Below are positions 9,554-59,555 of a stretch of DNA of 64,000 nt, one piece after another. The stretch is from a virus. Position 1 is the stretch's first letter; each line of letters starts with the position of its first letter. The stretch spans positions 1 through 64,000 of IMG/VR virus record IMGVR_UViG_3300020477_000001; one strand, 5' to 3'. The position numbers and the translations under genes were made by a program. Under the pieces are notes generated by a model. That model ran no database searches. It was not told where the DNA came from and saw only the letters and a program-made list of their open reading frames with translations.

Positions 9554-10516
9554 ATGAATACTCTGTATAAATTCGATGTTATTCGAAACATCACTTCAAA
9601 GTACGAAGAAAAATCCAAAAATGACGAAGGTGAGGAAGTAACCGTCACCAAAACAAAGTCTGAAAAAAAGCCCGTAAAGCTGGTAATTCGTAAACCAAAC
9701 AGAAGGCTCTATGAAGACGGAGAGTTGTTTTACGCGGTAAAACTTGGCGAAGGTATTAAGGCTGGCCTTTTAACAAAGGCTTTCATCGTTAAGAAATTCC
9801 AAAATGCAATGGAAGAAAAAGATGAAAACAGGGAAAGGAAAGAATACGCCGAGCTTTACTACAAACTCCTTAAAGAACAGGAAGAGTTAGAAAAACTAAG
9901 GCTTAATCTAGACAATGAGGACGAAGAGTACCGCAGTAAAAAAGCTGCTGAATGTGTAGCTAATATTCAATCTACTCAATCCAAAATCCAAGAGTATGAG
10001 CTAGCTCAAAACAACCTCTTTGATCAAACCGCCGAAAAGAGAGCTCAAAACCAGACAATTATGTGGTGGGTTCTGCATACTGCTTATTATGATCAAGACG
10101 AAAACGGCAATTATGAGCCAGTGTTCGGAGACGGAGACTACGATAAAAGAATCGAGGAATACGATAGACTCGAAGAAAAGAATGACCCTTTCTGGACTGA
10201 GGTGGTTAAAAAGTATGCTTATTTTGTTACCTTTTGGTACTTGAATGGAGTTAATAGTCAAGATCAGTTTGACGAGGTCGCAAACATGTTCTCTCGTGAC
10301 AACTTTGAGGAAAGTTTGGGCGAAGAAAAGACCGATTCCGAGGGTTCTGAGGAGGCTGAAAAGAAAGAAGAGTCAGAGCCAGAAGAAACCAAAACTGAAG
10401 AAAAATCAGAAGAGGAAACCAAGGAAGAGGCTCCTGCCAAAAAAGCAAAGACCAAGGCTAAAAGAGGCAGAAAGAAAAAGACGGAAACACCACCTTCCGA
10501 AGAATCTTCTTCGTAA
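9554..10516 (+). CDS. Putative tail assembly chaperone
   Basis: Between tail tube and TMP; coiled coil with an acidic then Lys-rich low-complexity C-terminus. Confidence 0.55.
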   Translation: MNTLYKFDVIRNITSKYEEKSKNDEGEEVTVTKTKSEKKPVKLVIRKPNRRLYEDGELFYAVKLGEGIKAGLLTKAFIVKKFQNAMEEKDENRERKEYAELYYKLLKEQEELEKLRLNLDNEDEEYRSKKAAECVANIQSTQSKIQEYELAQNNLFDQTAEKRAQNQTIMWWVLHTAYYDQDENGNYEPVFGDGDYDKRIEEYDRLEEKNDPFWTEVVKKYAYFVTFWYLNGVNSQDQFDEVANMFSRDNFEESLGEEKTDSEGSEEAEKKEESEPEETKTEEKSEEETKEEAPAKKAKTKAKRGRKKKTETPPSEESSS

Positions 10517-10535
10517 TTTAACGAAGAGGTAAACA

Positions 10536-11564
10536 GTGGAACAAGCCAAAGAAGACGAAAGTCTCTATACTAAATTGTATAGTGACATAATTGATGGCTA
10601 TTCTTCCTTCTCTCATAACGGCAAAGAAGTATTCATAAAACACGTATCCCAAACAGATTTTGGATACTTAGAGCAATTCGAAGACGACGAGAAGAATAAA
10701 GCTATCGAAAAAGGCTTACCTACCGAAAAAGAAAAGTTAAAAGACTTAATAGATCAATCTCTTTGGACTCAGAAACAAGAAGACCTTATAAATATTTTAA
10801 AAAAAGAAATCGAAGATAAAGAGATAATTATTAGCAAATTAATTATTGCTAGACAGATTCAACACACAAGAAAGCAAAAAGAAGCCTTAGAAAAAGACTT
10901 GCTCGAATTAACTTCAGAAAGAGAAGAACTAATAGGGTATACAGCAGAAAAGTACTCTGGTAAAAAATCTAATTTAGAAATTTTAAGGTTTACTCTTTTT
11001 AAAGATAAAGAATTCGAAGAGCTTCTTTTCGATAACGAAACTTTCGATCTCATGGACGATTCAGAACTCAATACATTGTTATTGAGTAATAATTCTATTC
11101 TGAACGATTTTACTCAAAGAAACTTAAAAAAGATAGCAGCGACGGGCTTTTTTCTTAATGCTTTTTTGATTGCTGAATCGAATGTTATGAATTTCTACGG
11201 TAAACCCGTGGTTCGACTCACTAATTACCAAATTGATATATTTAACCATGGATTAAAGTACAAAAACGTACTTGAAAAAGGTAAAACTCCTCCATCTGTT
11301 CTTACTTCCTTGGATGAAATTGTTGATTGGTACGAAGGTCAAGCCAGCGGTAAAACTGAGTACTCTGAAAACACGAAAAATAAGACGGGTCAAACCTTGG
11401 TTGGGGCATCCAAGCATGAGATGGAAACCATGATGGAATCAGCTAGGGGTAATAAGGAAGAGGAGGCCGTTACCTTGAATGACGAGGTGAAAAAGATGCA
11501 AAAAGGCAGAGAAAACAAAGTTTTAGATTTTAATGATATGTTGAAGATTCATGGAGAAATCTAG
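10536..11564 (+). CDS. Putative tail assembly chaperone (second)
   Basis: Directly upstream of the TMP; helical/coiled-coil; GTG start. Confidence 0.55.
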   Translation: MEQAKEDESLYTKLYSDIIDGYSSFSHNGKEVFIKHVSQTDFGYLEQFEDDEKNKAIEKGLPTEKEKLKDLIDQSLWTQKQEDLINILKKEIEDKEIIISKLIIARQIQHTRKQKEALEKDLLELTSEREELIGYTAEKYSGKKSNLEILRFTLFKDKEFEELLFDNETFDLMDDSELNTLLLSNNSILNDFTQRNLKKIAATGFFLNAFLIAESNVMNFYGKPVVRLTNYQIDIFNHGLKYKNVLEKGKTPPSVLTSLDEIVDWYEGQASGKTEYSENTKNKTGQTLVGASKHEMETMMESARGNKEEEAVTLNDEVKKMQKGRENKVLDFNDMLKIHGEI

Positions 11565-11594: not shown

Positions 11595-14500
11595 ATGGCT
11601 AGGGATATTGTATTATCGATTGACGGCGATACTAGACCGTTAGTAAGGCGACTAAATAAGGATATTAGTCGTGCCTCTAGGTCTGCTTCGTTCGAGATGA
11701 ACGATAAGAACTTTTCTCAACCGCTCGGAAGAATCACTGGTCAACTAGGAGAATTCGACCGAGCCCTTGACGCTTCTAATGCTCGTGTTTTAGCATTTGC
11801 CGCTTCTGCTGGTGTATTGCTTGTTGTTCAGAAAGGGTTCCAAGCCGTTTTCAGTTCGATGGTTAACGTCGAGAAGAAGCTGGCTGACATCAATGTTCTC
11901 TTTGGCGCAAGCGAAAAGTCTTTGGCTAAGTTTGGCAATTCTTTGTTTGGCGTAGCTAGCGAAACTGCTCAAGGCTTTGATGAAGTAGCGGTTGCTGCTA
12001 CCGAGCTAGCTCGTCAAGGTTTAAGTGCTGAAGAGACTTTAAAAAGAACCAGAGACGCTTTGATTCTGGTTAGGTTGACGGGCATGGACGCGGCTGAAGC
12101 GGTACAAGCTGTTACCGCAGCTTTGAACTCTTTCTCAAGGGCAGCGATTGATTCTACTGAGTACGTGAGTAAGCTAGCTGCTGTTGACGCAGCGTTTGCC
12201 GTAGGTTCTGACGACTTAGCTGCTGCTGTATCGCGTGTTGGCAGTAGCGCTCAAGAAGCTGGAGTTAGCCTTGATCAGTTGATAGCGATTGTAACCGCTG
12301 CTCAACAGATAACTGCTCGTGGCGGTGCTGTTATTGGTAACTCGTTTAAAACTATCTTTACTAGAATCCAAAGACCGCGAGTTCTAAAACAGTTAGAAGA
12401 ATTGGGAATCAGAACTCAAGACTTAGGCGGTAAGATTAGGCCCGCCTTGACAATCTTAAAAGAACTAGCTCAAACCTACGATTTACTTGCTCAATCTCAA
12501 CAAGCTCAGATCGCTGAGTTAATTGGTGGCGTATTCCAAGTAAACGTACTCAAAGCCTCTTTGCGAGACTTGGGTAAAGAGTTTTCACTTTACAACAATG
12601 CTCTAAATATTTCTAACAACGCTACAGATGAAGCTATTAGAAGAAACGAAGAGCTAAACAAAACTGTTTCTGCAAGCTTAAACCAAGTAGTTCAAAACTT
12701 CACTAAGTTTGGCGCTCAAGCTGGTAAAGCCATACTTGGGCCACTAACCAAAAACGTCAGTACTGGAATCAATGCCGTTATTGGAGAATTTTCTTTAGAT
12801 AGAGCAGAGAAGAACATAGAAGACGACTCAAGAAGCTTAGGTAACAAGATTGTTTCTGGAATATTTAAGGGAGTAGGAAAGTTCCTTGGAACTGGTGGTA
12901 TTATTATTGGAATTAAGATTCTATTTAATACCTTTAGAGAATTTACAAGATACGCAATTGATGGAGTAAAAAAATTAGGAGCCATTGGTGGTCAAACAAG
13001 AGACCAAATAGAATTACAAGGTCAAGTCACAAGAGAGCTAGAAAAACAACCCGAACTCTTAAGGCAATTAGTAAATGGAGAAATAGACGCCAAGGAAGCA
13101 GCCGATAAACTTTACAGTAGCTTAAAGCAGAATACTCAAGAGCTAAAAATACAAAAAGACTTGGTCGAATCATTTGCCTACGCCATGTCGGCTAAAGGAG
13201 TGAGAATAGCTCCCACAACAGCGGGTGCTACTACAATTGATCCAGCAAGTGTTGCTAACGTTGGTTTTGTTCCTAATTTCACAAGCACAAAAGATTCCAT
13301 TGCTGCTGCTGTAGAGCTTTCTTCCGCAAGTTACGCAAACTCAAGTACAAAAGCGATCAAAACGAACATCGACGGTATTGGCTCGGTGATGACTAACTCG
13401 AAAGAGAAGATAGTCAAACACCCGTCATTCAAACAACCATTTGTTAATCCGCCCATCACAAGTCCAGAGGGTAGAGCTCACAAGAGAAGATCAATAGATA
13501 AAACTGGCGTTGATCCGTACAAACATGCCTTCGGCGGATTCATTCCGAACTTTGCCCTTGATCCAGAAAAGATAGTAGGAAAACTAGACAAAAAGAGCGG
13601 AAAGCGGGGTAAAACTTTAAGGGATCAAGTCGCAAGCGTTAAGAGAGACGCAGGTCAGTATCTTGATGCCAAGCAAAAAATGGATTTATTTTATGAGAAA
13701 AAAGAAACAACTGGATTTAAAAGTTTAAATGACGCTGCGGGTGCTTTGGGTGTAGGTGATAGATTCTTCGAGACAAGCAAATACGGTAGATACAGACTTG
13801 CGGCTTTGGTTGACAAATTTGGTGGCGGAGATGTAAATAATTTACCGCAAGTTATTAGAAATCACGCTGACGATTTAAAAAATATAAAAGCTAAAGATCA
13901 AGAAGCTCAGAGCTCTGGTAAGGAATTTGAACAAAGATTAGCTAGCAAATTAAACTATGAATTAGTAGCGAACGAACCAATTGACTTCGGAAAAGGAATT
14001 GGTAATCCCAATGGAATAAGATCAACCATTGGAATGGAAGATACCTACGCTTACGCTGACGCAATCGATTCGAGAAGAGGCCATGAAGAAGGTCTTTATC
14101 TGGATAAAGTATTAAGATGGCAGCGCCAACAAGAGGGCACTCCAGTAAATGCGACTTCAATTCTAGGAAACTTCTTAAAAGGAGAACAACTCCATAAATT
14201 CGGAAATCTTTCTCCAGTCGAAGTAATTGGGGTAAACAGCGAGGCTGAAAACGTTGGTGGTCGGTATGGAGTAGAGAACGAAAGAGAATTTTTTCCTTGG
14301 ATTGACTCGACATCCAGAAGTAAAGGCGCTTCACAAGAAACCAGAGAAGAATTTAAAAAAGCTAATGAAGGCGGCGTTCCTTTACTGGAGAGTGTACGAG
14401 AAGCAGCGACAGAAGGACAAATCAGATCACCAAGAATATCTTGGTCTTATGACAGGGACAATGTTTCTACCAAAGCTTTGGGTATGAGCGGCGGACATAT

Positions 14501-17500
14501 TCCTAACTTTGAAGCTATTGCTGCTGCTCAACCGTTACCGTCTGTGCCAATTGAATCAAATCCAAATTGGATAAAATTAAAAGAAAAAATAGATGACGGC
14601 ATAGCTAAATATGGTTTTGGAGATATGCGGGCTAATTTAATAGAGGATTCAAGAGTATCTATTGATGGTATTAATAGTTTCCTTAATAATGGAACCCTAG
14701 CCCCAACCAAAGAAGACTCTCAAAAGAAAATGCAGGATGCTTCTTACAAGGGTCTTTATAATTTCGTCAATAGTGATGTCCCCAGCCAAAAAAGAATAGA
14801 TAGTTTAATAAAAGATGCCAGAGAAAATAAAGAAACAGTAGATAGAAGGCTTTTAGATATTTCCACTGAAGATGTAAATAAAGAAACTTTCTTTGAGACT
14901 TTGAAAACCTTGGCTGGTTCTTTAATGATGACATATGGTCTTCCAGTATTAATCGCAAAAGCAGCGAAAACATATCCCGCTGCTGCTGTGGCACTCGCTG
15001 CCGCGAAGACTCCTGTTGGCATCGCCACTGGCGTTCTTAGTGGCGTGGGCTTGGCATCGTTAGCTTTCTGGAAAGAAGGGAAAGCTAAAAACGAAGCTGT
15101 TGAGTTGAGTAATGGTTTAGAAGGTAGCCTTGGAGGAATTGAAGATTACAACACCGAACATAACAATCTAAGAAAAGAAGCTATAGTTAAAGCTTCCTTA
15201 GTTTCTAAACCAACAGAATTACATCGAGGTACTTTATACAGCTACGGAGATGTAAGTTCCAGATTATCTGAAAATACTAAAGCATGGCCAGAAGGCGTGT
15301 CTATAGGAGAACAGGATGGTTTCCCAATATGGAGTGCTGCCAACACTATGTTTTATAAAGGGAAAGATAACACAGTACGTCATGAAACATTAGATAATTT
15401 GGGTGGTAGCTCAAAAGACAGTGAGGAAAACTTAGCGGGATGGCCTAGATTAAACATTAACGAAATCAACAAGGCAGCGGGTTTAGCTAAAATGAGGGGA
15501 ATTACAGCAGCAAAGAATTCTTTCTTTGCTGACCACAAACGAGAAAATATAAATAAAATAAATGGCCCTGCTGATTCTGCGTATGTTAAAGGATTTATTG
15601 ATAATATTAAAGGAATCAGAAATGAAATTAATAAACGCTTAGAAGATAATTTGGATGTCAATTCATGGACTCGCCCAGACCATATTGTTTCTAGCAAAGG
15701 CTACATACCTAATTTTGAAACGCTTGATGAGCGAGGGCTTCCACCTCTACCGACAAATAAAGAGATGGAAGTGGCGCGTTCGTTAAAAAAAGCATTTAAG
15801 AATAAACAAATAGTTAAACATCCAACAATAGGACCAAGAGGTAAACATTACGTAGCTATGGGGCTTGGTTCGAGAGCTCCTAGATATGGGGGCGGGGTCG
15901 ATAACCGAACTATACCATATACTATCATATCCGCATCTGCGGAAACAGCAGAGGAGACTGGGTATCTTTCAGCCGATTACAATAAAGGAGGTGGTTTTCT
16001 GACGCCTTTCTTTGATGGTATAATGAATTATAATAATAGAAATATTGACCAATCAGTAACAAGAGGGTCTGGTTTAGCTAGATTCTCTATGTTACAAAAA
16101 TTCGCGAGGGAAAAAGGCGCTTCAATAGATTCAGAATCTATAGTAACAAACCCCAACCTATTAAAGAATGTAGAATATAAACACAAATATGGAACGCGAG
16201 ATGAACTGATAAACCCCGACGATAAATATGCGAGTCTTCGAGAAGAGAAAGAAGAACTTTCGGAAAAAATAAGAGAATTAAGAGGTCAATATCTAAAAAA
16301 TCGTGACGGCGACGAAGAGTTGAACGAACCATCGGGCATTGGATATGCATCACTTCCCGACAACAACCCGTTCCGAGGGCTCGAAAGAGATTTTCCTGCA
16401 AGCCAACCTAGCGAGAAACAAAAAAAACTTCTTAAACAAATTCAAAAATTAGAAGGCTCTAGAAGCGAAATAAAGGATGAAAAGCGACAAAGGATAGCAG
16501 AGCTTATAGAAGAGAATTTTAAAAATACTCAAGCTGATAAAAGAAGTGCTTGGGCTAAGCTTATAGAAATTATTCCCCAATTAAAATATAGAATGGGTAA
16601 GGCTGGCGGTGAAGGCGTTATTACGCAGGGAGAGTTTTATAGCTCACTTCCAAAAAACGAAACATTACCATCAATCTTAGACCCTTATGAATTTAAATCC
16701 CTTAATGATCTTCGCAATTTCGTTTATAATATTGTACAAAAACACGGCGCTTCAGAATTTAATAAACATATAGTTGGTTTGGTTGATGATAATAATGACG
16801 GTAAATTTGATGCAGGAACTATCCCACCGAATTTGGCGGCGTTGGGAAAAAGTCTGGGCGTAAGCGAATTAAAAACTATTCCTATTGAAAATCTTCCTGC
16901 TGGATATTTCGGAGGGAAACCTCACCAAGATGATTCTAATGTACCTTTCAACAGCAAAGGATTCGTTCCCAACTTCGTTAAATTTAATCCTTCTAATCCG
17001 CCAGCGTTAAGAAAACCAGCTATTGCATTAAAGCTCAAGAACAAAGAAATACATTACGATCCAGATTCTTTGATGCATTATCAAGCTGCCGAGAATTTAA
17101 ATATTTTACCAGAAGAGATACTAGAACATGGATTTATAAATAAAGGAAAATATGAATCTTCTTTCTTCTCTGATTTTGAAAAAATTGCAGACAGACAAAA
17201 GGCTGGTATAGGAGAGTTCGCTGACGCTTCTGAAGCTCTTGGAATTCCACGCGGAGAGCCATTGCCGAGAGGCGGCATTGTTACAGCCGATCAAATGAGG
17301 GCTCCTGCAATAGATAGATCGAGCCTTCCTCGTGGTCATGCTCCTATGAGAGGACCATCAAGACCAATGAGGTATGGTGGTTTTGTTCCTAATTTCTTAA
17401 AAATACCAAAAGCTACGAGTGAAAAGGGCGGCGGATCACTTCACGTTATGCTTGCTGAGATGCTTCAAAGCAACGCAGGTAAAGTTGTAGAAGCGGTTTC

Positions 17501-20500
17501 CAAGACTCCCAAGCTTTTTAATAAATTTAAAAACTCAATCAAGCTAAGAGAATTCGGAGAGCAAGATACTTACGGCGGCATAACTGCTAGCGAAGGTTTA
17601 GTACCTAACTTCCTTAACATTCCTAAGCCCACCTCAGAAAAGGGCGGCGGCAAGTTAGTGGACATGATTCTGGATACCCCAGAACTACTCATGAAGTTCA
17701 AGGACTTTGTTCGCAACAACATGAGAGAAACGCTGGAAGCTTTCGACAAGTGGACAGACACTCCTTCTGAGTTGGCTCAAAAATATATAGATGGAAACCT
17801 ATATCGCGGATACATTCCTAATTTCAGTAGCGCTTTGGGAGATGCGATTAACAGAGAAAAATCTGCGGGCATTTCGAGTAGCAGTATCAGAGTAGATTCT
17901 GATCCCTCGCTTAAGACGAAACAAAATCCGATGGGCTTAGGTGTTTACAACACCAAACAAGAAACGAGCCTTAAGCAAGGAATAAAATTTTCCAAACAAG
18001 CTGGAATCGATCCTAAAACTAAAGGAGCGTTTAGAGGACATATTCCTAACTTCGCGGCAGATAGAGCACCAGCGGGCGGCTTAGAATTCCAAGGAAAAGA
18101 ATACAAGGGCGGGCAGTTCATGCCAGAAGGCTCTGTAGACACAGCGTTACTAACTTCGATAAACAATGCGCTCAAGGGAACTTTGGATAAAGCTAAAGAA
18201 ATGACTAGCTCTATGAGCCAAGCTGTTTCTGGAATCGAGGGTTTACAGAAAGCCTCTAGCCAAATGGCTGACTCTATGAGCGAGGCTGTTTCTGGAATCG
18301 AAAGCTTACACCAAACCTCTACTCAAATGGCTGACTCTATGGGTGATGCTGTTGCTCATTTAGATGATTTAGGTAACGGGATAATGGGCCTTCAAAACAT
18401 TCAAAGTCAGCAACTAACCGCCGCTCAAGAAGGGTTAAAGCAAGCTAAAAATCAAAGCATAAACCAATACGTTACGGCTGTGAAGACAAGTGAGATAGCT
18501 GCTTCAATGCAAGCCCAAGCTGACCTTGCACAACAGCAAGAAGACGAAAGACAAAGAGGATTGCAGTTAGAAAAAGATAGAAACAAAAGAATTGCTGCTA
18601 ATGTAAAAGATGCGGGCACTACAGCGCTCAATATCCTAAGCACAGGTTTCGAGGGCGCAGCGCCAGCGGGAGCACCAGAGATCGGCATAAAGAAATTAGG
18701 AGAAGACTCAGATGTTAAAACCAGCCTAGGAGACAGGCTAAAGACAGACCTAGGAGCTTTTAAAATAGAAGAAAAACACGATGTCGATCAATCTGCCGCA
18801 GCGCAGGAAGCATATGACCGACTAAGCGCAGCAGTACGCGCAGCAAGTCAAGCCGCAGAGCAGGAAACAAAGAAAATAGAAGGCTTAGTACCTAAAGACT
18901 TACAAGGTAAATTTCAAGAATTTGGTTCGTTAACGGATGATGCACAAAAGGCTATAGCTGCTAGCGCTAATAACATGACGGTAGCTGAGTTTGAGAACGA
19001 GACGGAAGACGAGCAACAAAAACTTAAGGACGCTCTTGCAGCTTCAGTCAACCACGTAAATAAATTTAACGCAAACCAAGAAACCTACAACGACGCAATC
19101 TCAGACGCAGAAAAACAATTAAAAGCAGCAAACTTAACGAAAGTAGATAGAGTTGAAATTGACCCAGCGAAGCTAGCGCAAAAACAAGAAGCTGGCACAA
19201 TCTCTGTAGACGAGCTAAAAGACGCTCAAGCAGCAGTCTCCAGACAACTCAGACAAATGGATTCAGATATAGCTGATTACAGACGAACACTAGACGAAGG
19301 CACTACATTCACTCCAGAGGGAGACAAGCTTCAAAGTCAAGCCGCAATGGATGCCGAAGCAAAAATAAAAGAGTTAAACGACAGCAGAGAAGAGCTCGCA
19401 GATAAACTCAAGCAAATCAGTAAAACAACAAGCGAAGCTACCTTAAAAGATTTAGAAGCCAGCAGCGCACAAGTCAAAGAAGCTTTGGATAAATTAGGTA
19501 AAAACGCTTCATCAATGGACTTTACTGACTTAATACAAAGAGAAACCAAAGATAAAAATAGAGAAAGAGCGATAGCTGGAAAAGGCAAGGGCATAGGAAC
19601 AGAAAACGTTTCCCTTGGTGGTATATTTGGTGCTTTAGGTAAGAAGTTCACTCAGCAAGCAGACGCCAGTGATGATGTTCAACAAAAAATGTTCTTCATG
19701 AGTTCAGCCATTAGCACTGTTAGTGGAATGTTCGATTCTTTTGGTGAAGAAGGCGCAGCACTAAACAAAGGAATAAGTGGTATGACCGATGGCGTGAACA
19801 CCGCCACGGGAATTATTTCCACGTTACCCGGTCCTTGGGGCAAGGCTGTCGGCATTGTAGCTGGCGTAGGTGTTGCTCTTAACGGCGTAGCAAAAGCTAT
19901 ATCTTCTAACAAATTAGATGTTGCTGGCCTTAAGAAAAAAGCAGACCAAGCTGGAGAAAAGTTTACTGAACTCTCAAACAATATCACTGCATACGCTAGC
20001 GCATTTTCGGAGCTTCAATCTGCTGCGGCAGACATGAACACTCCAGCCGATCAAATCATAAGACTCAATAAAAAGCTAGAAGATTTAATAGCGAGCGTTC
20101 CGCCTAAATTCGCCGCTGACTTAGCAGCGATAACAGACCCAGCAGACCTTCAAGCCAAAGTAGCTGAAATCATTGCGGGCGAGCAAAAGAAAACCAAGTC
20201 CATAGAGTTTGCTGCTTCATCAGCCGAAAGAATGGATGCTAATGCTGGTATAAGTAATCTCTACGGATTCGCTTCTCCAGTTGCTCAGTTCGATGGTAAA
20301 GAGGGTGCAGTGAATCTAGAAAGAGCGGCGGGAGACTTGAGTCAACTCATTGACTTCGAAAAACTACAAAATGGTTTGGGCAAAGCTTCTACAGCGATGG
20401 AGAAAGATGCTACAGAAAGATTGCTATCTGCAAATAGCGCTAGCGAAATGGCTAACGCCATGAAACAAGGCTTCGGCGCTACCGAAGAATTAGCTAACTC

Positions 20501-23500
20501 GATTCGCCAAATGAACCAAGGCGACTTGCAAATTCTTAGAAAGAGATTAGTGGACATGGCCAATGCTGCAAGAAGAGCAAGAGAGGCAATGGAGAAGGTA
20601 GCGGCAGAAAGAGCAAAAGTATCCACAGATTTAGAAATACCGAAGCTACAGTTAGCAATTCAAGCCGCAACTATTAATGTTGAGCAAGAAGAACAGATGC
20701 TGGGTACGGCTGGCGGAGGTATTGAAGGATTCAAAGACCCGCAATCTCTTAATGCTGCGTTTGATTCATTTACAGCAGCGCTAGGTCAGTTAACGGCGCA
20801 AACAACGTCACCGGGAGCACAAGGAGCAGCCACTGGACAGGGCAGAGCAGTACTTGGTCTTGTCGAAGGTCTCAGAGACATAGCTGGCATCATACCAACA
20901 GTTGACGATTCCGGTCAAATGACTTCTGAGTTCAAAGACTTCAGAGACACTGTAGCGGCTGGAATAGAAGAGTCTATCAGAGAACAAACCAAAGCTCAGT
21001 TAAAACAGGCTCAAGCTCAGATGGCAGTAGCCACTGATTCCGATGACATTAGACAACTTGAATCCGTAATAGGACTACTGCAAAATAGATTAAGTGATGC
21101 AGATTTCATTTCTCAAGCAGCGATGAAACAAGCTGACGAGGCTATTGGCACTGTAGGTGTTGAAGTTAAGACTATTCAAATTCCAGCAGAAGGTTCTACG
21201 CGCATAGGAGAAACCATAGGTACAACTATGGAAGGGTTTGGCGTTACAGGAGCAAAAGCAGACCAAACACTCATCGATGCTAATGATGAGATTGCTTACC
21301 AACTCCAGAGAATGCAAAAGCGAGAAGCCGAATTAGAGAAAAAGAAGAAAGCGGGAACCCTTACTGACGACGAAAAACAAGAGCAAGCAGACTTAGCGAC
21401 AGCAATAAAATCACTAACAGACATAGGAACAGTCACTAAAGATACCACGGCTGGTCAACTGCAAAGTTTACAAGTAGTTGACGCGGCTACTGGAGAAATA
21501 GGAGACCTATTTAAGGGAGACCGGATGCAGGTAGGCGGAGATTTGACTCCAGCCCAAAAAGCCTTGATGCGTAAGCAGGACGAACTAAGAATTGCTACTG
21601 ATAAATTAGCTGAAGCCACAAGAGACGCCGCCGCAAAGGTTAAAGAAGAGCAAGAAAAAGAAGTAGCACGAGAAGGTGGCAGAAACCTTCTCCAAGGAAT
21701 GACCCAGACTCAGCAATTTGTAACTGGCGCTGGGACAGACTCATTGTTTGGCGGAGCAGAAACTCAAGCTGAACTAGATCAAGGTGGATTTGTTGCTAGA
21801 GCAATACAAGAGCAAGCAGGAAATCTTGGGATTTTGAATTGGACTGAGATGGGAGGATTGACTAAGGCTGATCGTGGAGAAGCCGCCTCTGAGTTCATAA
21901 TGGGAGAAAGAGAAGTTGGCGACACCGGAGTCAAGAGCATGGAGGGTCTGGTGGAAGCTATGAGAGTTGTTTCTCAAAAGGCTGAGGAAAGCGCTGGTAG
22001 AGAATTGGGCGTAGGTGATTTGCAAAGTTTAGCTTTTGGCAACCTAGATTTTGAGGGAGACTTGACTCAAGAGGGTGTGCGAGACGCTATGATGGAAGCT
22101 CTTAAAACTGAGATGAATATCAAAGACGAGCAAGCCGCAGAATTACTAGATCATATTTTCAAAGTATTTAAGAACGATAAAAACGGTGCAAATACAAACC
22201 AATTACTCAAATCAATTCTAGCTTCTACGAACAAAGACGAATTCCAGAAGATGGATAAAATGGCCGAAAAGGCAGTGCAACCGGGTAGTATTTATACTAA
22301 CGACCAAAAGGGACGCGAAGAATTACAGAAGCTAAGAGAAATGATGGCCAAGAACTTTGGTCAATCTCAAGAAGACGTTGAAAAAGCCAAAGCAACAGTA
22401 GAAAAAGAAAGACAAGAAAACGCCGTCAAGATTCCCTTCACCAACATGGCTCTTCCGAATATATCTGACTTATCCGCAGGAAACATGGCTGCTGGAGCAG
22501 TAACTGCAACTGGGGCTGGTATCGCTGGTTACAAGGGAACTAAATTTGTAGCTCAAGCTGGTAAAGACGCGCTAGGCGCTGGACGGCAAGCGGCGATGCG
22601 TGGGATGGGCTCTGAAAAGGTGTGGTTTGGCGACGAAAGAGGACAAAAGAGAGGCACTTTCAGAGAAGAGTATAAAAAAAGAAGAGAAGCAAGAAAGAAA
22701 AAGCCCGCCGCAGACGCTCCAGACCCTAAAGCAACAGATACTCCAGAGCCTAAAAGCACTAAACCCAAGGCTGGCGCTGACAAGATAGACGATCTTAGAG
22801 GAAAAGGCCCAAGACCAACTCCTAGCACAACAGGAACAGCGGCAATTGATGATGCAACGCGGACAGCAACGACTACTGCTGAAACGCCCAAGTCTAAGCC
22901 CAAGATTGAAAGAAGATTAGCTGGCAGCAAACCCGCGCCTACCACAGCGCCTAAAAAACCAGCAATTAGAATAAATCGACCATTTATAGAAGGCTACGGG
23001 GGTCAGCAAATTGACCCAGTTACTAAAAAGCCAAATGTGGCAGGAGCAGTAGACGACGTTGCCGAAGCTGGAACTAAAGCTGCCACAAAAACTACAACAG
23101 CCACCAAGGGCGTTGCTAAAGGTACTGAAGCGGCTGCTAAGTCAGCAAGTAAACTTACCACCGCTTTAAAAGTAGCTGGCAAAGCAGCCGTTGTTGTTGA
23201 CGCAGCATTAGTTGGTTGGGACGCATACAAGGTCACAGAAGCTCTTGCTACTGGTAACTTCGATGAATACGCTCAAGCTTATGAGGATGCGAATAAAAAC
23301 GCTGGTATTCTCACTAGAAGTCTGAACGGAATGTCTAGTCCGATCACCGCTGTTGCTACTGACATAAAAATAGTAAGTGATACATTTAGCGCTTACTCTG
23401 ACGCAGCGCAACTCGCGGCTGACGCAAACAAAAAGATGGGCGAGCAAATAGGCAAGAGTTCCGAAAATATAATGAACTTCGGAAAACAAGCCTTGAATGT

Positions 23501-25973
23501 TACTTCTAGCTCTGTAGATTCTAGCGTGGTCGGTGGAATTGCTTCTCACATTATGGCTCAAAATGAAGCTGCGGCTAGAGAAGGCAAAGGCAATGAAGCT
23601 ATAACTATGTTACAAGCCTCTGGCGGCTTAGGAAAAGAGAAGCACAGAATAGCTGAATTAGCTGGATCAAGAGAAAGAGCAGTTAAAGAGTCTGGAGAAA
23701 GAGCTAGGCAAAGGGCTGAAGCCGAGTTGGGTGGCGAAGGTGGAATGAAAGATCAATTCGCCAATTTATTAGAAGTAGGAAGATTGTCAACTGGGCTCAG
23801 TGCAGACATAAGAAGTGGTAAAGGTGCGTTTACATTGGCTAGACCAGATTACGACGATAATCAAATGAAGCTTAGTGACCTTAAGAAATGGCTAGAAACA
23901 AATAAAGATATGAGGCCAGAAGATAGAGTTAAGGGAATGAGGCAGATTGATAAAGCTCAAGCGATGGGAATCACAACTCTTGGCGGGTTAAGAGGAAAAG
24001 AGAAGGAACTAGCCCGACAAATAGAATTCAAGAAAACTAAAATCGCAGAAGAAGAACTAGCCAAATCATTATCTGCTGCTGGGATAAACATTGAAGAGTT
24101 TACCAAAAAAATGGGAATAGACCTTGGTCAACTTGCCTTAGACTTAACCAACGACGCAGATATCGGTCAAGGAGCATTAGACAAGCTAGGCGCAGCGGTA
24201 GCTACAGAAGTGACGGCTCAAGAAACTGCCAAGGTAGGCAAAGAAAGAATTGAGCAATTTAAAGAACAATCTGCTGGTGGCAAATTCTCTGTCTTGGATG
24301 ACATGACAAAGAGAATAGAAGAGCTCAGAGGTAAGGAGTCTCTTACTAAAGAAGAAACCGCAGAATTACAAAACCTACAAGCAGGAAAAACAGCAAGACT
24401 TGCTAACATTAGACAAATACAGGGAACTCAAGGTGACGCAGCAGCAGCCGAATATGTAACTCTTCTAGAGCGGCTAGATCAGATGAATCAACGCAAAGCG
24501 GACCTACAATCTCAAGGTATAAGCACTGATAATGTTCAACAAGTTATAGATTCTATAACAACAGGTCTATCTGCTTACGGTTTCGGAAATGAAGCAACGC
24601 AGAAAAAAGACGATCTTGAGAAAATGCAAATAGCCGCAATGACGGCTGGAGGAAAATCTGGCGCTGCCAATACAATAACCCAAAATAACAAAGAACTAAG
24701 TGGCCTCAATGAGGAATTGAGGGACTTAGAGCTATCGGCAGCTAGCGATGATAGTGAAGAGAATTTAGATCGTGTAAAGAAAAGAAGAGATGAGTTAATG
24801 GCTCGAAAGGCTCAAATAGAAGAAGAAAACAAGAGCATTAAAGCCGAAACCTTAGCTGATCCGAAAGTTTATGCCGCCTTCCAAGAAGTAGCCGCAAAAG
24901 ATCAAGGAAGAGCAAGTAGAGACGTAGATGGACTTGATGCTGCTCAAAGAGCTAAGGTGCTATCTGGGTTCCGTGGGCGCACTGATCATGGTGGTAAAGA
25001 CCAGAGCATGTACGGCGAAGAAGACCCAATGGGCGTATTAGGAAAAGAAAAGAGCGTCACCCCTGTATTTGTTGTTAATTGGCCACAGGCAGGAATTGGT
25101 CAAGGCGCAATGGGCGGCGATTTACCGCCTGTTGTTAAAGCATTGCAAGCATCTATGGGCGACCAAGTTGCAAATACCTTCCACAGGCGTGGTCAATCTC
25201 TCGGCGCTTCTGGTGGTGCTTTTGGTTATGGCGGAATAGGTGGAGCAGCAACGAATCAAAGCGCAATTCAGAGATTTGTCACCCGTGGTCAAATGGGGGA
25301 CACGATGTCTTCCGCGATGTCTAACGCTGGTTATCGTCAGTCTATAGCTCAACAAATGGGCGCATTTAGCCCACTTGGAGGAGCCAGAACAGTTGGCGCT
25401 GGTGGGCCGATGACGAGCATAGAAAGTATGCCTCAAGCTGGCGGAAAAGATGTACCTTTGAGGATTGACGGAATCTTTAGTTTAAACGAAAATATATTAA
25501 AATTAAACGAGAGCATAAGAGCGGCATTCTTGGGAGAAACAGCAGGACCGGACGCGAAAACAACCCCAGATGAAGCCGCAGTCGAAGCCGCAGCAGAGAC
25601 GGTTGCAGCAGAAGCAGCAGAAGTAGACACTTCCGGTATAACAGAAAGTATCGAAGCATTGAAAACTGTATTAACTGAATCGAACGAGTCTCTCAGTAGT
25701 GCTTTCACTGAAAATACTGCTCTTCAGTACGAACAGTTTGCAGCGTTTGTAAGTGCTCTAGGTGGTCTAGTTTCTCAGTTGAGCAAGGGAGCTACTCTTG
25801 ACATCAACCACGCAATTACTCATGCTGGTTCTATAGATACCAATGTGATTGGTGGAGCTCAGTTCGATGCTTTGCAGGATGGATTGGGGCAAGTAGCTGG
25901 CGAAGTGGGGGTTAATCTAAACCCGACAAATGGAGGCCCAACGCCTCCTGCTGGGGGCACTCAACCAGCTTAA
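11595..25973 (+). CDS. Tape measure protein (4792 aa) with internal GxxPNF-delimited modules
   Basis: The N-terminus has TP901-family TMP core motifs (AATELARQG, GAVIGNSFKTIFTRI, LKQLEELGI). Long Ala/Glu/Lys-rich helical regions; lies after the tail tube and chaperones. Confidence 0.9.
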   Translation: MARDIVLSIDGDTRPLVRRLNKDISRASRSASFEMNDKNFSQPLGRITGQLGEFDRALDASNARVLAFAASAGVLLVVQKGFQAVFSSMVNVEKKLADINVLFGASEKSLAKFGNSLFGVASETAQGFDEVAVAATELARQGLSAEETLKRTRDALILVRLTGMDAAEAVQAVTAALNSFSRAAIDSTEYVSKLAAVDAAFAVGSDDLAAAVSRVGSSAQEAGVSLDQLIAIVTAAQQITARGGAVIGNSFKTIFTRIQRPRVLKQLEELGIRTQDLGGKIRPALTILKELAQTYDLLAQSQQAQIAELIGGVFQVNVLKASLRDLGKEFSLYNNALNISNNATDEAIRRNEELNKTVSASLNQVVQNFTKFGAQAGKAILGPLTKNVSTGINAVIGEFSLDRAEKNIEDDSRSLGNKIVSGIFKGVGKFLGTGGIIIGIKILFNTFREFTRYAIDGVKKLGAIGGQTRDQIELQGQVTRELEKQPELLRQLVNGEIDAKEAADKLYSSLKQNTQELKIQKDLVESFAYAMSAKGVRIAPTTAGATTIDPASVANVGFVPNFTSTKDSIAAAVELSSASYANSSTKAIKTNIDGIGSVMTNSKEKIVKHPSFKQPFVNPPITSPEGRAHKRRSIDKTGVDPYKHAFGGFIPNFALDPEKIVGKLDKKSGKRGKTLRDQVASVKRDAGQYLDAKQKMDLFYEKKETTGFKSLNDAAGALGVGDRFFETSKYGRYRLAALVDKFGGGDVNNLPQVIRNHADDLKNIKAKDQEAQSSGKEFEQRLASKLNYELVANEPIDFGKGIGNPNGIRSTIGMEDTYAYADAIDSRRGHEEGLYLDKVLRWQRQQEGTPVNATSILGNFLKGEQLHKFGNLSPVEVIGVNSEAENVGGRYGVENEREFFPWIDSTSRSKGASQETREEFKKANEGGVPLLESVREAATEGQIRSPRISWSYDRDNVSTKALGMSGGHIPNFEAIAAAQPLPSVPIESNPNWIKLKEKIDDGIAKYGFGDMRANLIEDSRVSIDGINSFLNNGTLAPTKEDSQKKMQDASYKGLYNFVNSDVPSQKRIDSLIKDARENKETVDRRLLDISTEDVNKETFFETLKTLAGSLMMTYGLPVLIAKAAKTYPAAAVALAAAKTPVGIATGVLSGVGLASLAFWKEGKAKNEAVELSNGLEGSLGGIEDYNTEHNNLRKEAIVKASLVSKPTELHRGTLYSYGDVSSRLSENTKAWPEGVSIGEQDGFPIWSAANTMFYKGKDNTVRHETLDNLGGSSKDSEENLAGWPRLNINEINKAAGLAKMRGITAAKNSFFADHKRENINKINGPADSAYVKGFIDNIKGIRNEINKRLEDNLDVNSWTRPDHIVSSKGYIPNFETLDERGLPPLPTNKEMEVARSLKKAFKNKQIVKHPTIGPRGKHYVAMGLGSRAPRYGGGVDNRTIPYTIISASAETAEETGYLSADYNKGGGFLTPFFDGIMNYNNRNIDQSVTRGSGLARFSMLQKFAREKGASIDSESIVTNPNLLKNVEYKHKYGTRDELINPDDKYASLREEKEELSEKIRELRGQYLKNRDGDEELNEPSGIGYASLPDNNPFRGLERDFPASQPSEKQKKLLKQIQKLEGSRSEIKDEKRQRIAELIEENFKNTQADKRSAWAKLIEIIPQLKYRMGKAGGEGVITQGEFYSSLPKNETLPSILDPYEFKSLNDLRNFVYNIVQKHGASEFNKHIVGLVDDNNDGKFDAGTIPPNLAALGKSLGVSELKTIPIENLPAGYFGGKPHQDDSNVPFNSKGFVPNFVKFNPSNPPALRKPAIALKLKNKEIHYDPDSLMHYQAAENLNILPEEILEHGFINKGKYESSFFSDFEKIADRQKAGIGEFADASEALGIPRGEPLPRGGIVTADQMRAPAIDRSSLPRGHAPMRGPSRPMRYGGFVPNFLKIPKATSEKGGGSLHVMLAEMLQSNAGKVVEAVSKTPKLFNKFKNSIKLREFGEQDTYGGITASEGLVPNFLNIPKPTSEKGGGKLVDMILDTPELLMKFKDFVRNNMRETLEAFDKWTDTPSELAQKYIDGNLYRGYIPNFSSALGDAINREKSAGISSSSIRVDSDPSLKTKQNPMGLGVYNTKQETSLKQGIKFSKQAGIDPKTKGAFRGHIPNFAADRAPAGGLEFQGKEYKGGQFMPEGSVDTALLTSINNALKGTLDKAKEMTSSMSQAVSGIEGLQKASSQMADSMSEAVSGIESLHQTSTQMADSMGDAVAHLDDLGNGIMGLQNIQSQQLTAAQEGLKQAKNQSINQYVTAVKTSEIAASMQAQADLAQQQEDERQRGLQLEKDRNKRIAANVKDAGTTALNILSTGFEGAAPAGAPEIGIKKLGEDSDVKTSLGDRLKTDLGAFKIEEKHDVDQSAAAQEAYDRLSAAVRAASQAAEQETKKIEGLVPKDLQGKFQEFGSLTDDAQKAIAASANNMTVAEFENETEDEQQKLKDALAASVNHVNKFNANQETYNDAISDAEKQLKAANLTKVDRVEIDPAKLAQKQEAGTISVDELKDAQAAVSRQLRQMDSDIADYRRTLDEGTTFTPEGDKLQSQAAMDAEAKIKELNDSREELADKLKQISKTTSEATLKDLEASSAQVKEALDKLGKNASSMDFTDLIQRETKDKNRERAIAGKGKGIGTENVSLGGIFGALGKKFTQQADASDDVQQKMFFMSSAISTVSGMFDSFGEEGAALNKGISGMTDGVNTATGIISTLPGPWGKAVGIVAGVGVALNGVAKAISSNKLDVAGLKKKADQAGEKFTELSNNITAYASAFSELQSAAADMNTPADQIIRLNKKLEDLIASVPPKFAADLAAITDPADLQAKVAEIIAGEQKKTKSIEFAASSAERMDANAGISNLYGFASPVAQFDGKEGAVNLERAAGDLSQLIDFEKLQNGLGKASTAMEKDATERLLSANSASEMANAMKQGFGATEELANSIRQMNQGDLQILRKRLVDMANAARRAREAMEKVAAERAKVSTDLEIPKLQLAIQAATINVEQEEQMLGTAGGGIEGFKDPQSLNAAFDSFTAALGQLTAQTTSPGAQGAATGQGRAVLGLVEGLRDIAGIIPTVDDSGQMTSEFKDFRDTVAAGIEESIREQTKAQLKQAQAQMAVATDSDDIRQLESVIGLLQNRLSDADFISQAAMKQADEAIGTVGVEVKTIQIPAEGSTRIGETIGTTMEGFGVTGAKADQTLIDANDEIAYQLQRMQKREAELEKKKKAGTLTDDEKQEQADLATAIKSLTDIGTVTKDTTAGQLQSLQVVDAATGEIGDLFKGDRMQVGGDLTPAQKALMRKQDELRIATDKLAEATRDAAAKVKEEQEKEVAREGGRNLLQGMTQTQQFVTGAGTDSLFGGAETQAELDQGGFVARAIQEQAGNLGILNWTEMGGLTKADRGEAASEFIMGEREVGDTGVKSMEGLVEAMRVVSQKAEESAGRELGVGDLQSLAFGNLDFEGDLTQEGVRDAMMEALKTEMNIKDEQAAELLDHIFKVFKNDKNGANTNQLLKSILASTNKDEFQKMDKMAEKAVQPGSIYTNDQKGREELQKLREMMAKNFGQSQEDVEKAKATVEKERQENAVKIPFTNMALPNISDLSAGNMAAGAVTATGAGIAGYKGTKFVAQAGKDALGAGRQAAMRGMGSEKVWFGDERGQKRGTFREEYKKRREARKKKPAADAPDPKATDTPEPKSTKPKAGADKIDDLRGKGPRPTPSTTGTAAIDDATRTATTTAETPKSKPKIERRLAGSKPAPTTAPKKPAIRINRPFIEGYGGQQIDPVTKKPNVAGAVDDVAEAGTKAATKTTTATKGVAKGTEAAAKSASKLTTALKVAGKAAVVVDAALVGWDAYKVTEALATGNFDEYAQAYEDANKNAGILTRSLNGMSSPITAVATDIKIVSDTFSAYSDAAQLAADANKKMGEQIGKSSENIMNFGKQALNVTSSSVDSSVVGGIASHIMAQNEAAAREGKGNEAITMLQASGGLGKEKHRIAELAGSRERAVKESGERARQRAEAELGGEGGMKDQFANLLEVGRLSTGLSADIRSGKGAFTLARPDYDDNQMKLSDLKKWLETNKDMRPEDRVKGMRQIDKAQAMGITTLGGLRGKEKELARQIEFKKTKIAEEELAKSLSAAGINIEEFTKKMGIDLGQLALDLTNDADIGQGALDKLGAAVATEVTAQETAKVGKERIEQFKEQSAGGKFSVLDDMTKRIEELRGKESLTKEETAELQNLQAGKTARLANIRQIQGTQGDAAAAEYVTLLERLDQMNQRKADLQSQGISTDNVQQVIDSITTGLSAYGFGNEATQKKDDLEKMQIAAMTAGGKSGAANTITQNNKELSGLNEELRDLELSAASDDSEENLDRVKKRRDELMARKAQIEEENKSIKAETLADPKVYAAFQEVAAKDQGRASRDVDGLDAAQRAKVLSGFRGRTDHGGKDQSMYGEEDPMGVLGKEKSVTPVFVVNWPQAGIGQGAMGGDLPPVVKALQASMGDQVANTFHRRGQSLGASGGAFGYGGIGGAATNQSAIQRFVTRGQMGDTMSSAMSNAGYRQSIAQQMGAFSPLGGARTVGAGGPMTSIESMPQAGGKDVPLRIDGIFSLNENILKLNESIRAAFLGETAGPDAKTTPDEAAVEAAAETVAAEAAEVDTSGITESIEALKTVLTESNESLSSAFTENTALQYEQFAAFVSALGGLVSQLSKGATLDINHAITHAGSIDTNVIGGAQFDALQDGLGQVAGEVGVNLNPTNGGPTPPAGGTQPA
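13263..18053 (+). repeat. Nine dispersed G-[FYHL]-[IV]-P-N-F peptide motifs within the TMP
   Basis: Motif starts at 13263, 13536, 14493, 15699, 16959, 17379, 17595, 17808 and 18036 (aa 557, 648, 967, 1369, 1789, 1929, 2001, 2072, 2148). Confidence 0.95.
18210..18355 (+). repeat. 63-bp (21-aa) tandem repeat in the TMP
   Basis: MSQAVSGIEGLQKASSQMADS / MSEAVSGIESLHQTSTQMADS / MGDAV; gctgtttctggaatcga and caaatggctgactctatg recur 63 bp apart. Confidence 0.85.
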
Positions 25974-50046: not shown

Positions 50047-50055
50047 GAAATTAAT

Positions 50056-50224
50056 GAGAGGGAGGATTTCTTGTTTGCCTCCAACGGCTTCGGGGTCACA
50101 GCCAAGATAGTTCAAGTCTGTCCCTACTTCGCGCCAACCTTACAGACCCCCAAGAGATTGGTGGTCTCCTAGTCCGTAACATTGCACCTTAGCTGCTATG
50201 ACAACAGCTTATTCGGTCACTCTC
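50056..50224 (-). ncRNA. manA-like structured ncRNA
   Basis: Minus strand reads GAGAGTGACCGAATAA...TAAGGTG...GGAGGCAAACAAGAAATCCTCCCTCTC, which resembles the cyanophage manA RNA as I recall it. The terminal stem and internal hairpins have G-U pairs only on the minus strand. Confidence 0.7.
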
Positions 50225-50262
50225 TTAGGGTCTCCGTCGAGTCCCTAAATTATTTAAAAGAA

Positions 50263-51392: not shown

Positions 51393-51398
51393 GGTTAG

Positions 51399-59554: not shown

Positions 59555-59555
59555 T

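What the first reader, a model, noticed from the sequence alone, without database searches (positions are those of the whole stretch)
13263..18053. Tape measure protein as a cargo polyprotein: nine GxxPNF motifs delimit eight modules
Seen: after the TP901-like core, G-[FYHL]-[IV]-P-N-F occurs nine times (NVGFVPNF, FGGFIPNF, SGGHIPNF, SKGYIPNF, SKGFVPNF, YGGFVPNF, SEGLVPNF, YRGYIPNF, FRGHIPNF). I saw it nowhere else in the window. The motifs bound segments of 91, 319, 402, 420, 140, 72, 71 and 76 aa. These are mostly unrelated and globular in composition, unlike the Ala-rich helical TMP on either side. Codons differ between copies, so conservation is at the protein level. Established: TMPs are often proteolytically processed and are ejected into the host. 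Inference: the motif is a processing site and possibly a cassette-exchange point, so the TMP would be a magazine of effector proteins released at infection. I know of no description of this architecture.
Basis: partly seen in the sequence, partly recalled or inferred. Interest (0 to 1): 0.92.

Follow-up and report, generated by a model that had tools for sequence, protein, structure and literature searches.

The report
Junction peptide fencing tape-measure modules
The 4792-residue tail "ruler" protein of this uncultured 158-kb aquatic phage carries a stretch of swappable, mostly unknown protein modules, each fenced by the same short peptide (G-x-I/V-P-N-F); hundreds of related phages share this layout, but whether the protein is cut at these peptides to release injected proteins is untested.

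Summary
ORF 11595-25973 encodes a 4792-aa TP901-type tape measure protein (TMP) with nine G-x-[IV]-P-N-F motifs and the stated spacings. About 0.0025 are expected by chance, and there are none elsewhere in the 158-kb genome.

The motif is general. Its extended form, [ALM][SAN]xG[FLYH][IV]PNF[A], occurs 2-16 times in nearly all of 165 related TMPs (536 unique perfect sites) and only in TMP ORFs.

It lies in low-confidence (linker-like) stretches of two AlphaFold models. Homology blocks between relatives start or end within 10 residues of a motif in about 70% of cases, against 13% at random.

The layout is: TP901 core, a small "bookend" domain (C2), variable modules, a homologous bookend (C1), then a long helical part. 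The window's modules m2-m7 are near-orphans in 1.84 billion representatives. Some relatives carry an SNase domain fully inside one module.

Cassette exchange at the motif is therefore supported. Cleavage and effector delivery are not shown, and five protease-family profile searches of the genome found nothing.

My best reading is a site-specific processing site (about 0.45). The main rival is an uncut docking peptide (about 0.3).

This scan has noted the same architecture on at least 7 other genomes. I found no paper describing it.

The parts
11595..25973 (+). Tape measure protein gene, 4792 aa (P0001)
   Evidence: Single ORF. PF10145 scores 97.6 bits and TIGR01760 125 bits. PHROG TMP families match aa 17-460. 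Near-identical full-length copies occur in assemblies from several sources.
11832..12764 (+). TP901-type TMP core domain (aa 80-390), inside the conserved N-terminal block C0 (aa 1-562)
   Evidence: TIGR01760 at aa 80-390. C0 has BLAST matches in 133 of the 165 other TMPs collected and is 72% identical to the closest relative P0003.
13263..13280 (+). Motif 1 (GFVPNF)
13281..13553 (+). Module m1, the bookend domain C2 (aa 563-653), ending in motif 2 (13536-13553)
   Evidence: Matches in 88 relatives. Homologous to C1 by hhalign: 96.8% probability, E 2.8e-10, although the shared end motifs add to this score.
13554..14510 (+). Module m2 (aa 654-972), ending in motif 3 (14493-14510)
   Evidence: The only relative is P0003 at 25% identity over part of the module. 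There is a weak profile match (75%) to the common X module, aligning G..FE, IDF and ADA-I. The ESM Atlas gave nothing.
14511..15716 (+). Module m3 (aa 973-1374), ending in motif 4 (15699-15716). Contains a hydrophobic stretch at aa 1141-1159.
   Evidence: No homologue found. Hydrophobic run seen.
15717..16976 (+). Module m4 (aa 1375-1794), ending in motif 5 (16959-16976)
   Evidence: Homologous only to the P0003 module (31% identity) and to the fragment P0047. The ESM Atlas gave nothing.
16977..17396 (+). Module m5 (aa 1795-1934), ending in motif 6 (17379-17396)
   Evidence: Its first 76 aa are 97% identical to the fragment P0047. The upstream part of P0047 is only 46% identical to m4.
17397..17825 (+). 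Modules m6 and m7 (aa 1935-2077), two related ~72-aa units, ending in motifs 7 (17595-17612) and 8 (17808-17825)
   Evidence: 34% identical to each other and about 40% identical to one 139-aa module of P0003.
17826..18053 (+). Module m8, the bookend domain C1 (aa 2078-2153), ending in motif 9 (18036-18053)
   Evidence: Matches in 157 of 165 relatives. The AF2 model is a small alpha/beta domain with core pLDDT 81-88, and the flanking motifs score lower, about 50-70 falling to 40. No fold match in PDB or the Atlas.
18054..25973 (+). C-terminal Ala/Glu/Lys/Gln-rich part (aa 2154-4792), presumed helical ruler, with no motif
   Evidence: Composition. 47% identical to P0003 over 1143 aa. No motif present.
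9554..11564 (+). Two acidic genes, helical-looking by eye (320 and 342 aa), just upstream. Presumed tail assembly chaperones by position only.
   Evidence: Genes of similar length occupy the same positions in L001 and L003. No Pfam or PHROG match. Sequences read.

Best explanation
SHOWN. The gene encodes a TP901-type tape measure protein with a hypervariable insert between its conserved core and its long C-terminal part.

- The insert starts with one small bookend domain (C2/m1) and ends with a homologous one (C1/m8).
- Between them lie exchangeable modules. There are six here and one to more than ten in relatives.
- Every unit ends in the same 9-residue linear peptide, [ALM][SAN]xG[FLYH][IV]PNF[A].
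- This peptide sits in flexible, hydrophilic linker sequence, is selected at the protein level, and marks the places where related phages differ by module gain, loss or replacement.

INFERRED (most likely mechanism).

- The peptide is the recognition site of a specific protease, which could be phage-encoded, assembly-dependent or host-derived.
- After tail assembly or on ejection, the TMP would be cut at each junction.
- This would free the modules as separate proteins that leave the tail tube ahead of the DNA. They include a staphylococcal-type nuclease in some relatives and a possible membrane-inserting module (m3) here.
- The core and the helical part would do the length-measuring job.

One site per junction, plus one at each outer edge, is the logic of a viral polyprotein.
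For: - Motif number and chance.
- Generality: the canonical motif occurs at 259 sites in the first 45 TMPs collected, the window's own included (43 carry at least two copies), against about 12 chance PNF in all. There are 536 unique perfect sites in 165 TMPs. Pro never varies, Gly almost never, and the only common changes are N to S and F to Y or L.
- Information content is confined to positions -6 to +3, with Gly/Lys/Asp/Pro/Ser-rich flanks.
- The motif occurs only in TMP ORFs, both in the whole genome and in the related loci examined.
- In both AF2 models the motifs lie outside the folded part. pLDDT is 40-70 in the C1 model and under 50 in the X model.
- Mosaicism: the module map shows shared modules in different orders and numbers.
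- 68-73% of HSP ends lie within 10 aa of a motif, against 13% at random.
- Against the closest relative, core, C2 and C1 are 68-72% identical, but modules are 0-40% identical and differ in number.
- P0047 switches from 46% to 97% identity at motif 5.
- An SNase domain (35.8 bits, cut-off 21) lies wholly inside one motif-bounded module of P0044. It spans aa 662-755, and the module is bounded by PNF at 630 and 831.
- From established knowledge, not tested here: lambda gpH and T5 pb2 are proteolytically matured, and TMPs leave the tail at infection.
Against: - There is no direct evidence of cleavage.
- No protease was found. The TMP has no peptidase domain. S78, ClpP, S49, S77 and Trypsin_2 profiles found nothing in the genome (the S77 control matched nowhere, so that search says little). 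The phage is very divergent, so this is weak evidence.
- The window's own modules have no recognisable enzymatic domain and almost no homologues. 'Effector' is therefore an assumption for them.
- HSP ends partly cluster at motifs simply because the motif is itself a conserved anchor.
- A TMP cut into ten pieces would have to stay assembled in the tube until ejection, which has not been shown.
- About 5% of the unique motif sites collected carry N to S, and the first motif is absent in many relatives, so not every junction need be cut.
Confidence: 0.45

Rival explanations
1. Uncut docking peptide. The motif is a short linear binding motif that pins each linker to a conserved partner, such as the inner wall of the tail tube, the tail assembly chaperones, or the bookend domains C1/C2. 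The non-helical modules would then be stowed in register and stay tethered to the TMP when it is ejected.
For: - Short, sharply bounded conservation in disordered flanks is typical of binding motifs.
- The tolerated changes (N to S, F to Y or L; Pro invariant) look like a turn or pocket-binding peptide rather than a catalytic residue.
- No protease was found.
- The bookend domains C2 and C1 are homologous and always carry the motif at their ends.
Against: - A covalently linked chain does not need a loading tag on every module.
- One motif at every junction and at both outer edges fits separation better than anchoring.
- Spacing is irregular (71-420 aa), unlike a periodic tube contact.
- No partner was identified.
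Confidence: 0.3
2. Passive joint. The peptide is mainly a neutral, flexible hinge that persists because modules are swapped together with their flanking joint. It would have no recognition partner.
For: Breakpoints coincide with motifs. The modules are highly mobile.
Against: - Gly, Pro, Asn and Phe are essentially invariant over 536 unique sites in TMPs whose cores are only about 43-50% identical.
- Codons vary, with 74% nt identity among the nine copies. Selection therefore acts on the peptide, and the DNA offers little homology for recombination.
- Ordinary linkers are not conserved like this.
Confidence: 0.12
3. Self-cleavage at the motif with no separate protease, for example Asn-mediated scission at N|F. 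Cleavage would be triggered by assembly, with catalytic help from the bookend domains or the tube.
For: - Asn and Phe are invariant at most sites, and no protease gene was found.
- The bookend domains have invariant Arg-Glu (C1) and Asn/Glu (C2 and C1) residues.
- From memory, not tested here: nodavirus and tetravirus capsid proteins self-cleave after Asn only once assembled.
Against: - N to S occurs at about 5% of sites.
- The motifs sit next to unrelated modules that cannot supply a common catalytic environment.
- Both models place the motif in disordered sequence.
Confidence: 0.08
4. Chance or low-complexity repeat, or an assembly artefact.
For: None.
Against: P is about 1e-29. The same ORF was recovered in assemblies from several sources. 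The motif is conserved in hundreds of TMPs.
Confidence: 0.01

Closest known systems
TP901-1-family tape measure proteins (PF10145 / TIGR01760)
   Same: The N-terminal core domain matches well above the cut-offs. The gene sits in the tail module, after two chaperone-like genes and before large distal tail genes. It has a long Ala/Glu/Lys-rich C-terminal part.
   Different: It is about five times longer than TP901-1 TMP. It has a 1600-aa non-helical insert of motif-fenced modules and two bookend domains that no Pfam, PHROG or NCBIfam model covers. No phage in INPHARED carries the bookend domain.
TMPs with embedded enzymatic domains (from memory: mycobacteriophage TM4 Rpf-like motif, staphylococcal phage TMPs with transglycosylase or M23 domains, T5 pb2 muralytic C-terminus)
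   Same: Extra functional domains ride inside the tape measure and reach the cell envelope on ejection. One relative here carries PF00959 lysozyme, and four of 36 scanned carry SNase.
   Different: Those carry one or two known cell-wall enzymes and have no conserved junction peptide. Here there are up to about 15 shuffled, mostly unknown modules, each ending in the same peptide.
Polyvalent proteins of phages and conjugative elements (Iyer et al. 2017, PMC5512222)
   Same: Giant virion-delivered polypeptides with 2-15 mosaic, fast-evolving domains. The paper proposes that they are processed to release their parts.
   Different: Those are defined by recognisable conflict domains and often carry their own peptidase (MPTase). 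They are mostly head-packaged, and the paper never mentions tape measures. Here the carrier is the TMP, no peptidase domain is present, and the junctions carry a fixed peptide.
Viral polyproteins with sequence-specific protease sites (from memory: potyvirus NIa/TEV sites, picornavirus 3C sites; phiKZ gp175 S/A/G-x-E sites in head proteins)
   Same: A conserved 6-9-residue site lies at every boundary between otherwise unrelated products.
   Different: No cognate protease has been identified and no cleavage has been shown. The context is a phage tail ruler.
TMP-related, reconfigurable effectors of actinobacterial contractile injection systems (Sle1; PMC13277306, PMC11126660)
   Same: A tape-measure-like platform is loaded in a tail tube and carries swappable functional domains that differ between relatives.
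   Different: Those belong to contractile injection systems, not a virus. Each has a single C-terminal functional domain, and the abstract mentions no repeated junction motif.

Membership tests
TP901-family phage tail tape measure protein | Match to the TP901 TMP core domain (PF10145 / TIGR01760) above the curated cut-off | tested here: met
   PF10145 scores 97.6 bits (cut-off 33.2). TIGR01760 scores 125.3 bits (cut-off 28.8).
TP901-family phage tail tape measure protein | Position in the tail morphogenesis module, between chaperone genes and distal tail genes | tested here: inconclusive
   Gene order is conserved in the window, L001 and L003. A Phage-tail_3 protein lies next to the TMP in L001. 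The neighbours in the window have no family match.
TP901-family phage tail tape measure protein | Sets tail length and lies in the tube lumen | not testable with these tools
   No isolate and no micrograph are available.
Viral polyprotein with specific cleavage sites | A conserved site at each junction between distinct products | tested here: met
Viral polyprotein with specific cleavage sites | A cognate protease encoded by the virus | tested here: inconclusive
   No peptidase domain in the TMP. No S78, ClpP, S49, S77 or Trypsin_2 match in the genome. A PHROG scan of ten ORFs around the terminase gene named no protease. The genome is too divergent for absence to be firm.
Viral polyprotein with specific cleavage sites | Cleavage products observed | not testable with these tools
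   This needs proteomics.
Polyvalent proteins (Iyer et al. 2017) | Several recognisable conflict or effector domains in one polypeptide | tested here: not met
   The window's modules match no Pfam, PHROG or NCBIfam family. Among relatives, only SNase (4 of 36 scanned) scored well above its curated cut-off. HATPase_c and DUF7307 each matched one member (scores not seen), and GNAT and G1_gp67_C were weak.
Polyvalent proteins (Iyer et al. 2017) | Own peptidase domain for processing (frequent, not universal) | tested here: not met
TMPs with embedded muralytic domains | Lysozyme, transglycosylase or peptidase domain inside the TMP | tested here: not met
   None in P0001. One relative (P0136) has PF00959.
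PD-(D/E)XK nuclease (for the common module X and, weakly, m2) | E...D...(D/E)xK residues on a restriction-endonuclease fold | tested here: inconclusive
   Module X has invariant G..FE, D, DxK and K. The AF2 model (mean pLDDT 65) gave no PDB match above background. m2 aligns at 75% probability with Lys replaced by Ile.

The most novel reading that the evidence does not exclude
The tape measure is a true polyprotein magazine. A site-specific cut at every G-x-[IV]-P-N-F would release a phage-specific, rapidly exchanged set of proteins that are fired into the host ahead of the DNA: nucleases, membrane-active modules and many proteins of unknown fold. The two bookend domains and the junction peptide would form a universal cassette holder used by hundreds to a thousand aquatic siphophages. 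That would be a new route of phage protein delivery and a natural, modular cargo system for non-contractile tails.
Probability: 0.35. Interest if true: 0.85.

Novelty: new variant of a known kind. Interest (0 to 1): 0.7.

Why it matters
Three things would follow if the junction peptide is a processing or loading signal.
- It would show how long-tailed phages carry variable proteins into cells through the tail tube. That topic is almost unexplored for siphophages.
- It would mark out hundreds of unknown, fast-evolving protein modules as candidate host-takeover or anti-defence factors.
- It would offer a simple rule (module plus 9-residue peptide) for loading foreign cargo into phage tails.

Even if the peptide is uncut, a peptide kept at near-identity at 536 unique sites in 165 TMPs whose cores have diverged to about 45% identity implies an unknown conserved partner in tail assembly.

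Tried and rejected
- Homotrimer prediction of C1 with its flanking motifs: no verdict. It is not used as evidence either way.
- Fold searches of the C1 model against PDB by Foldseek, VIA-align wide and the ESM Atlas: nothing above background.
- Fold searches of the X model against PDB by Foldseek and VIA-align wide: nothing above background (best Z 5.6, helical fragments only).
- PDB sequence-profile searches with C1 and X: nothing significant.
- ESM Atlas feature search for m2 and m4: no usable hit.
- Exhaustive HMMER search of aa 654-1794 against 1.84 billion representatives: only P0003, the fragment P0047, and one further TMP with ten matched stretches, probably via the repeated motif.
- My reading of module X as a PD-(D/E)XK nuclease rests on invariant residues only. 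The model did not confirm the fold, so it stays a lead.
- tblastn of the insert and of a typical C1 against 50,697 phage records: no match, so there is no cultured representative.
- Scan of GTDB genomes: six loci, all in MAGs of five unrelated taxa (Cellvibrionales, Neomarinimicrobiota, Halobacteriovorax, Flavobacteriaceae, Verrucomicrobiales). These are probably binned phage contigs, so no host can be inferred.
- Apparent split TMPs in L006 and L007 look like assembly problems: overlapping frames in L006, and a run of 100 N with a frame change in L007. They do not look like natural splits at a motif.
- N-glycosylation sequon: rejected, because position +3 is mostly Ala.
- DNA-level repeat or recombination site within the gene: rejected, because codons differ.
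- Population variants are nearly identical and give no information on selection.

Full report
**1. What is there**

The window is the first 64 kb of a complete 158,301-bp virus record with direct terminal repeats. ORF 11595-25973 (+) is a single 4792-aa frame.
- Residues 80-390 match the TP901 tape-measure core: PF10145 at 97.6 bits and TIGR01760 at 125 bits.
- PHROG tape-measure families match only residues 17-460. Nothing in PHROGs, Pfam or NCBIfam matches the following roughly 1600 residues.
- Full-length copies occur in assemblies from ENA, Logan, NCBI, JGI and Tara, and they differ from the window's protein at 0-3 residues. The giant ORF is therefore not an assembly artefact.

**2. The observation**

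- Composition predicts 0.0025 copies. In 20,000 shuffles the maximum was one.
- The motif occurs nowhere else in the genome in any frame.
- Codons differ between copies.
- The inter-motif segments are poorer in Ala and richer in Pro and aromatic residues than the flanks.
- The whole protein has no cysteine.

**3. The motif is a family trait**

A word-indexed search with residues 540-2170 found 45 giant TMPs of 2640-5251 aa. Nearly all carry 2-16 copies.

Most are TP901 TMPs with 2-4 copies.
- In 165 TMPs there are 536 unique perfect sites. Pro never changes, Gly almost never, and the tolerated changes are N to S and F to Y or L.
- The logo is [ALM][SAN]xG[FLYH][IV]PNF[A]. Information falls to background outside positions -6 to +3, and the flanks are rich in Gly, Lys, Asp, Pro and Ser.
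- In every locus fetched the motif is confined to the TMP frame. Two apparent second ORFs look like assembly problems: overlapping frames in one locus, and a run of N with a frame change in the other.
- No record among 50,697 deposited phage genomes has the insert or C1.
- Genome hits are only MAG contigs of mixed taxonomy. The family is uncultured and its host is unknown.

**4. Architecture**

I cut the first 44 homologues at the motif and clustered the pieces. This gives the following order:
- a conserved core (C0);
- often an ~88-aa module (C2, which is m1 here);
- a variable set of modules;
- a ~77-aa module (C1, which is m8 here), matched in 157 of 165 relatives;
- the long helical part.

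C2 and C1 are homologous by hhalign at 96.8% probability. The end motifs contribute to this score, but the internal A-G-x-P/S-x-x-I/V-K/R and G-x-V-x-N-S/T-x-x-E blocks also align.

The commonest relatives (1800-2000 aa) have the minimal form: core, motif, C2, motif, one ~235-270-aa module X, motif, C1, motif, helix. Module X has invariant G..FE, D, DxK and K residues.

**5. Are the borders real?**
- Shared modules appear in different orders, numbers and combinations.
- In all-against-all BLAST of whole proteins, 68% of HSP starts and 73% of HSP ends in the insert lie within 10 residues of a motif, against 13% for random points. Part of this arises because the motif is itself a conserved anchor.
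- Against the closest relative, P0003, the core, C2 and C1 are 68-72% identical. By contrast m2 is 25% identical over part of its length, m3 and m5 have no counterpart, m4 is 31%, and m6/m7 are about 40%. P0003 has ten motifs and different extra modules.
- At DNA level the neighbouring genes and the TMP core align at 64-70%. Nothing is detectable for TMP residues 642-2706.
- A 951-bp metagenome fragment is 46% identical before motif 5 and 97% identical for the next 76 residues. The switch lies about 10 residues upstream of the motif. It is a single short contig, so I treat it as an anecdote.
- An SNase domain in P0044 lies wholly inside one motif-bounded module.

**6. Structure**

AlphaFold2 with family alignments gave two models.
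- C1 folds as a small alpha-beta-beta-alpha domain with core pLDDT 81-88.
- Module X folds as a mixed domain with mean pLDDT 65.

In both, the motifs at the ends score lower than the core: about 50-70 falling to 40 in C1, and under 50 in X. They carry no regular secondary structure. Neither model has a convincing match in PDB, and the C1 model has none in the ESM Atlas either. The motif therefore behaves as a linear peptide in a linker, not as part of a fold. The modules cannot be one continuous repeat structure.

**7. What the modules are**

The window's m2-m5 have almost no relatives in 1.84 billion representatives, and the language-model search gave nothing for m2 and m4.
- m2 aligns weakly (75%) with the conserved half of X, with the Lys of DxK replaced.
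- m3 has a membrane-like hydrophobic stretch at aa 1141-1159.
- Among 36 relatives scanned, Pfam finds SNase in four, HATPase_c in one and DUF7307 in one, plus weak GNAT and G1_gp67_C hits.
- A further relative found later carries a lysozyme domain in the precomputed Pfam column.

'Effector' is thus plausible for some relatives but unproven for this phage.

**8. Mechanism**

The data show a protein-level recognition peptide at every junction and at both outer edges of a fast-evolving, exchangeable insert. This is the pattern of a polyprotein cut by a specific protease, and I rank it first (about 0.45).

Against it:
- no cleavage data exist;
- the TMP has no peptidase domain;
- profile searches for five protease families found nothing in the genome, and a PHROG scan of ten ORFs around the terminase gene named no protease, although this phage is too divergent for that to weigh much.

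The main rival is an uncut docking peptide that pins the linkers to a conserved partner such as the tube lumen, the chaperones or the bookend domains (about 0.3). The N-to-S and F-to-Y tolerance and the invariant Pro fit a bound turn at least as well as a scissile site. A passive hinge (about 0.12) is hard to square with near-invariance over 536 sites despite codon drift. Self-cleavage after Asn (about 0.08) is weakened by the Ser variants.

**9. Comparison with known systems and novelty**

The gene is a member of the TP901 TMP family by its core.
- It works most like TMPs with embedded enzymes and like the polyvalent proteins of Iyer et al. (PMC5512222). It fails the defining features of the latter: recognisable conflict domains and an own peptidase.
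- TMP-related, domain-swapping effectors of actinobacterial injection systems (PMC13277306) are a conceptual parallel.
- I found no paper with the motif or with this architecture.
- The scan itself has flagged the same thing on at least seven other genomes, and one follow-up reached the same conclusion.

I class it as a new variant of a known kind. The feature is real, widespread and undescribed, and its function is still open.

Noticed in passing
window 11595-25973: The 4792-aa TMP contains no cysteine at all.
   Followed up: no
window 15015-15071 (TMP aa 1141-1159, within module m3): A membrane-like hydrophobic run sits inside a motif-bounded module. It might be the membrane-inserting segment that many TMPs have, here packaged as a module.
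   Followed up: no
window 2-1951 and genome end (158,2xx-158,301): A collagen-repeat tail-fibre gene (PF01391; PHROG tail fibre families) runs across the ends of the record. The terminal repeat lies inside its Gly-x-y repeats.
   Followed up: partly
L005 (951-bp ENA contig), versus window 16580-17204: A patch of about 270 nt at 97-100% identity sits inside otherwise 60-70% identical sequence, starting about 30 nt before motif 5. It is either a recent gene-conversion patch or an assembly chimera.
   Followed up: partly
relatives P0066, P0160 and others (alignment A5): The commonest cargo module (X, ~235-270 aa) has invariant G..FE, D, DxK and K residues, like a PD-(D/E)XK nuclease. Its AF2 model gave no fold match.
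   Followed up: partly
window 49498-64000: A replication and modification block. It has a small methyltransferase (49498-50046, +). On the minus strand it has a glycosyltransferase with DUF4214 (52638-54557), DNA polymerase III alpha (55160-57775), a PD-(D/E)XK nuclease (59556-60491) and a DnaB helicase (61401-62876).
   Followed up: no
window 26006-49255: Eight large genes downstream of the TMP (593-2004 aa, including proteins of 2004 and 1320 aa) have no Pfam match at all. They are presumably distal tail or baseplate and fibre proteins.
   Followed up: no
G000 144998-146827 (L004 2998-4827): The large terminase was the only head or packaging gene that PHROGs named among the ten ORFs scanned around it. 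An ERCC4-type nuclease lies just upstream. No portal, capsid or protease family was recognised, which shows how divergent this phage is.
   Followed up: partly
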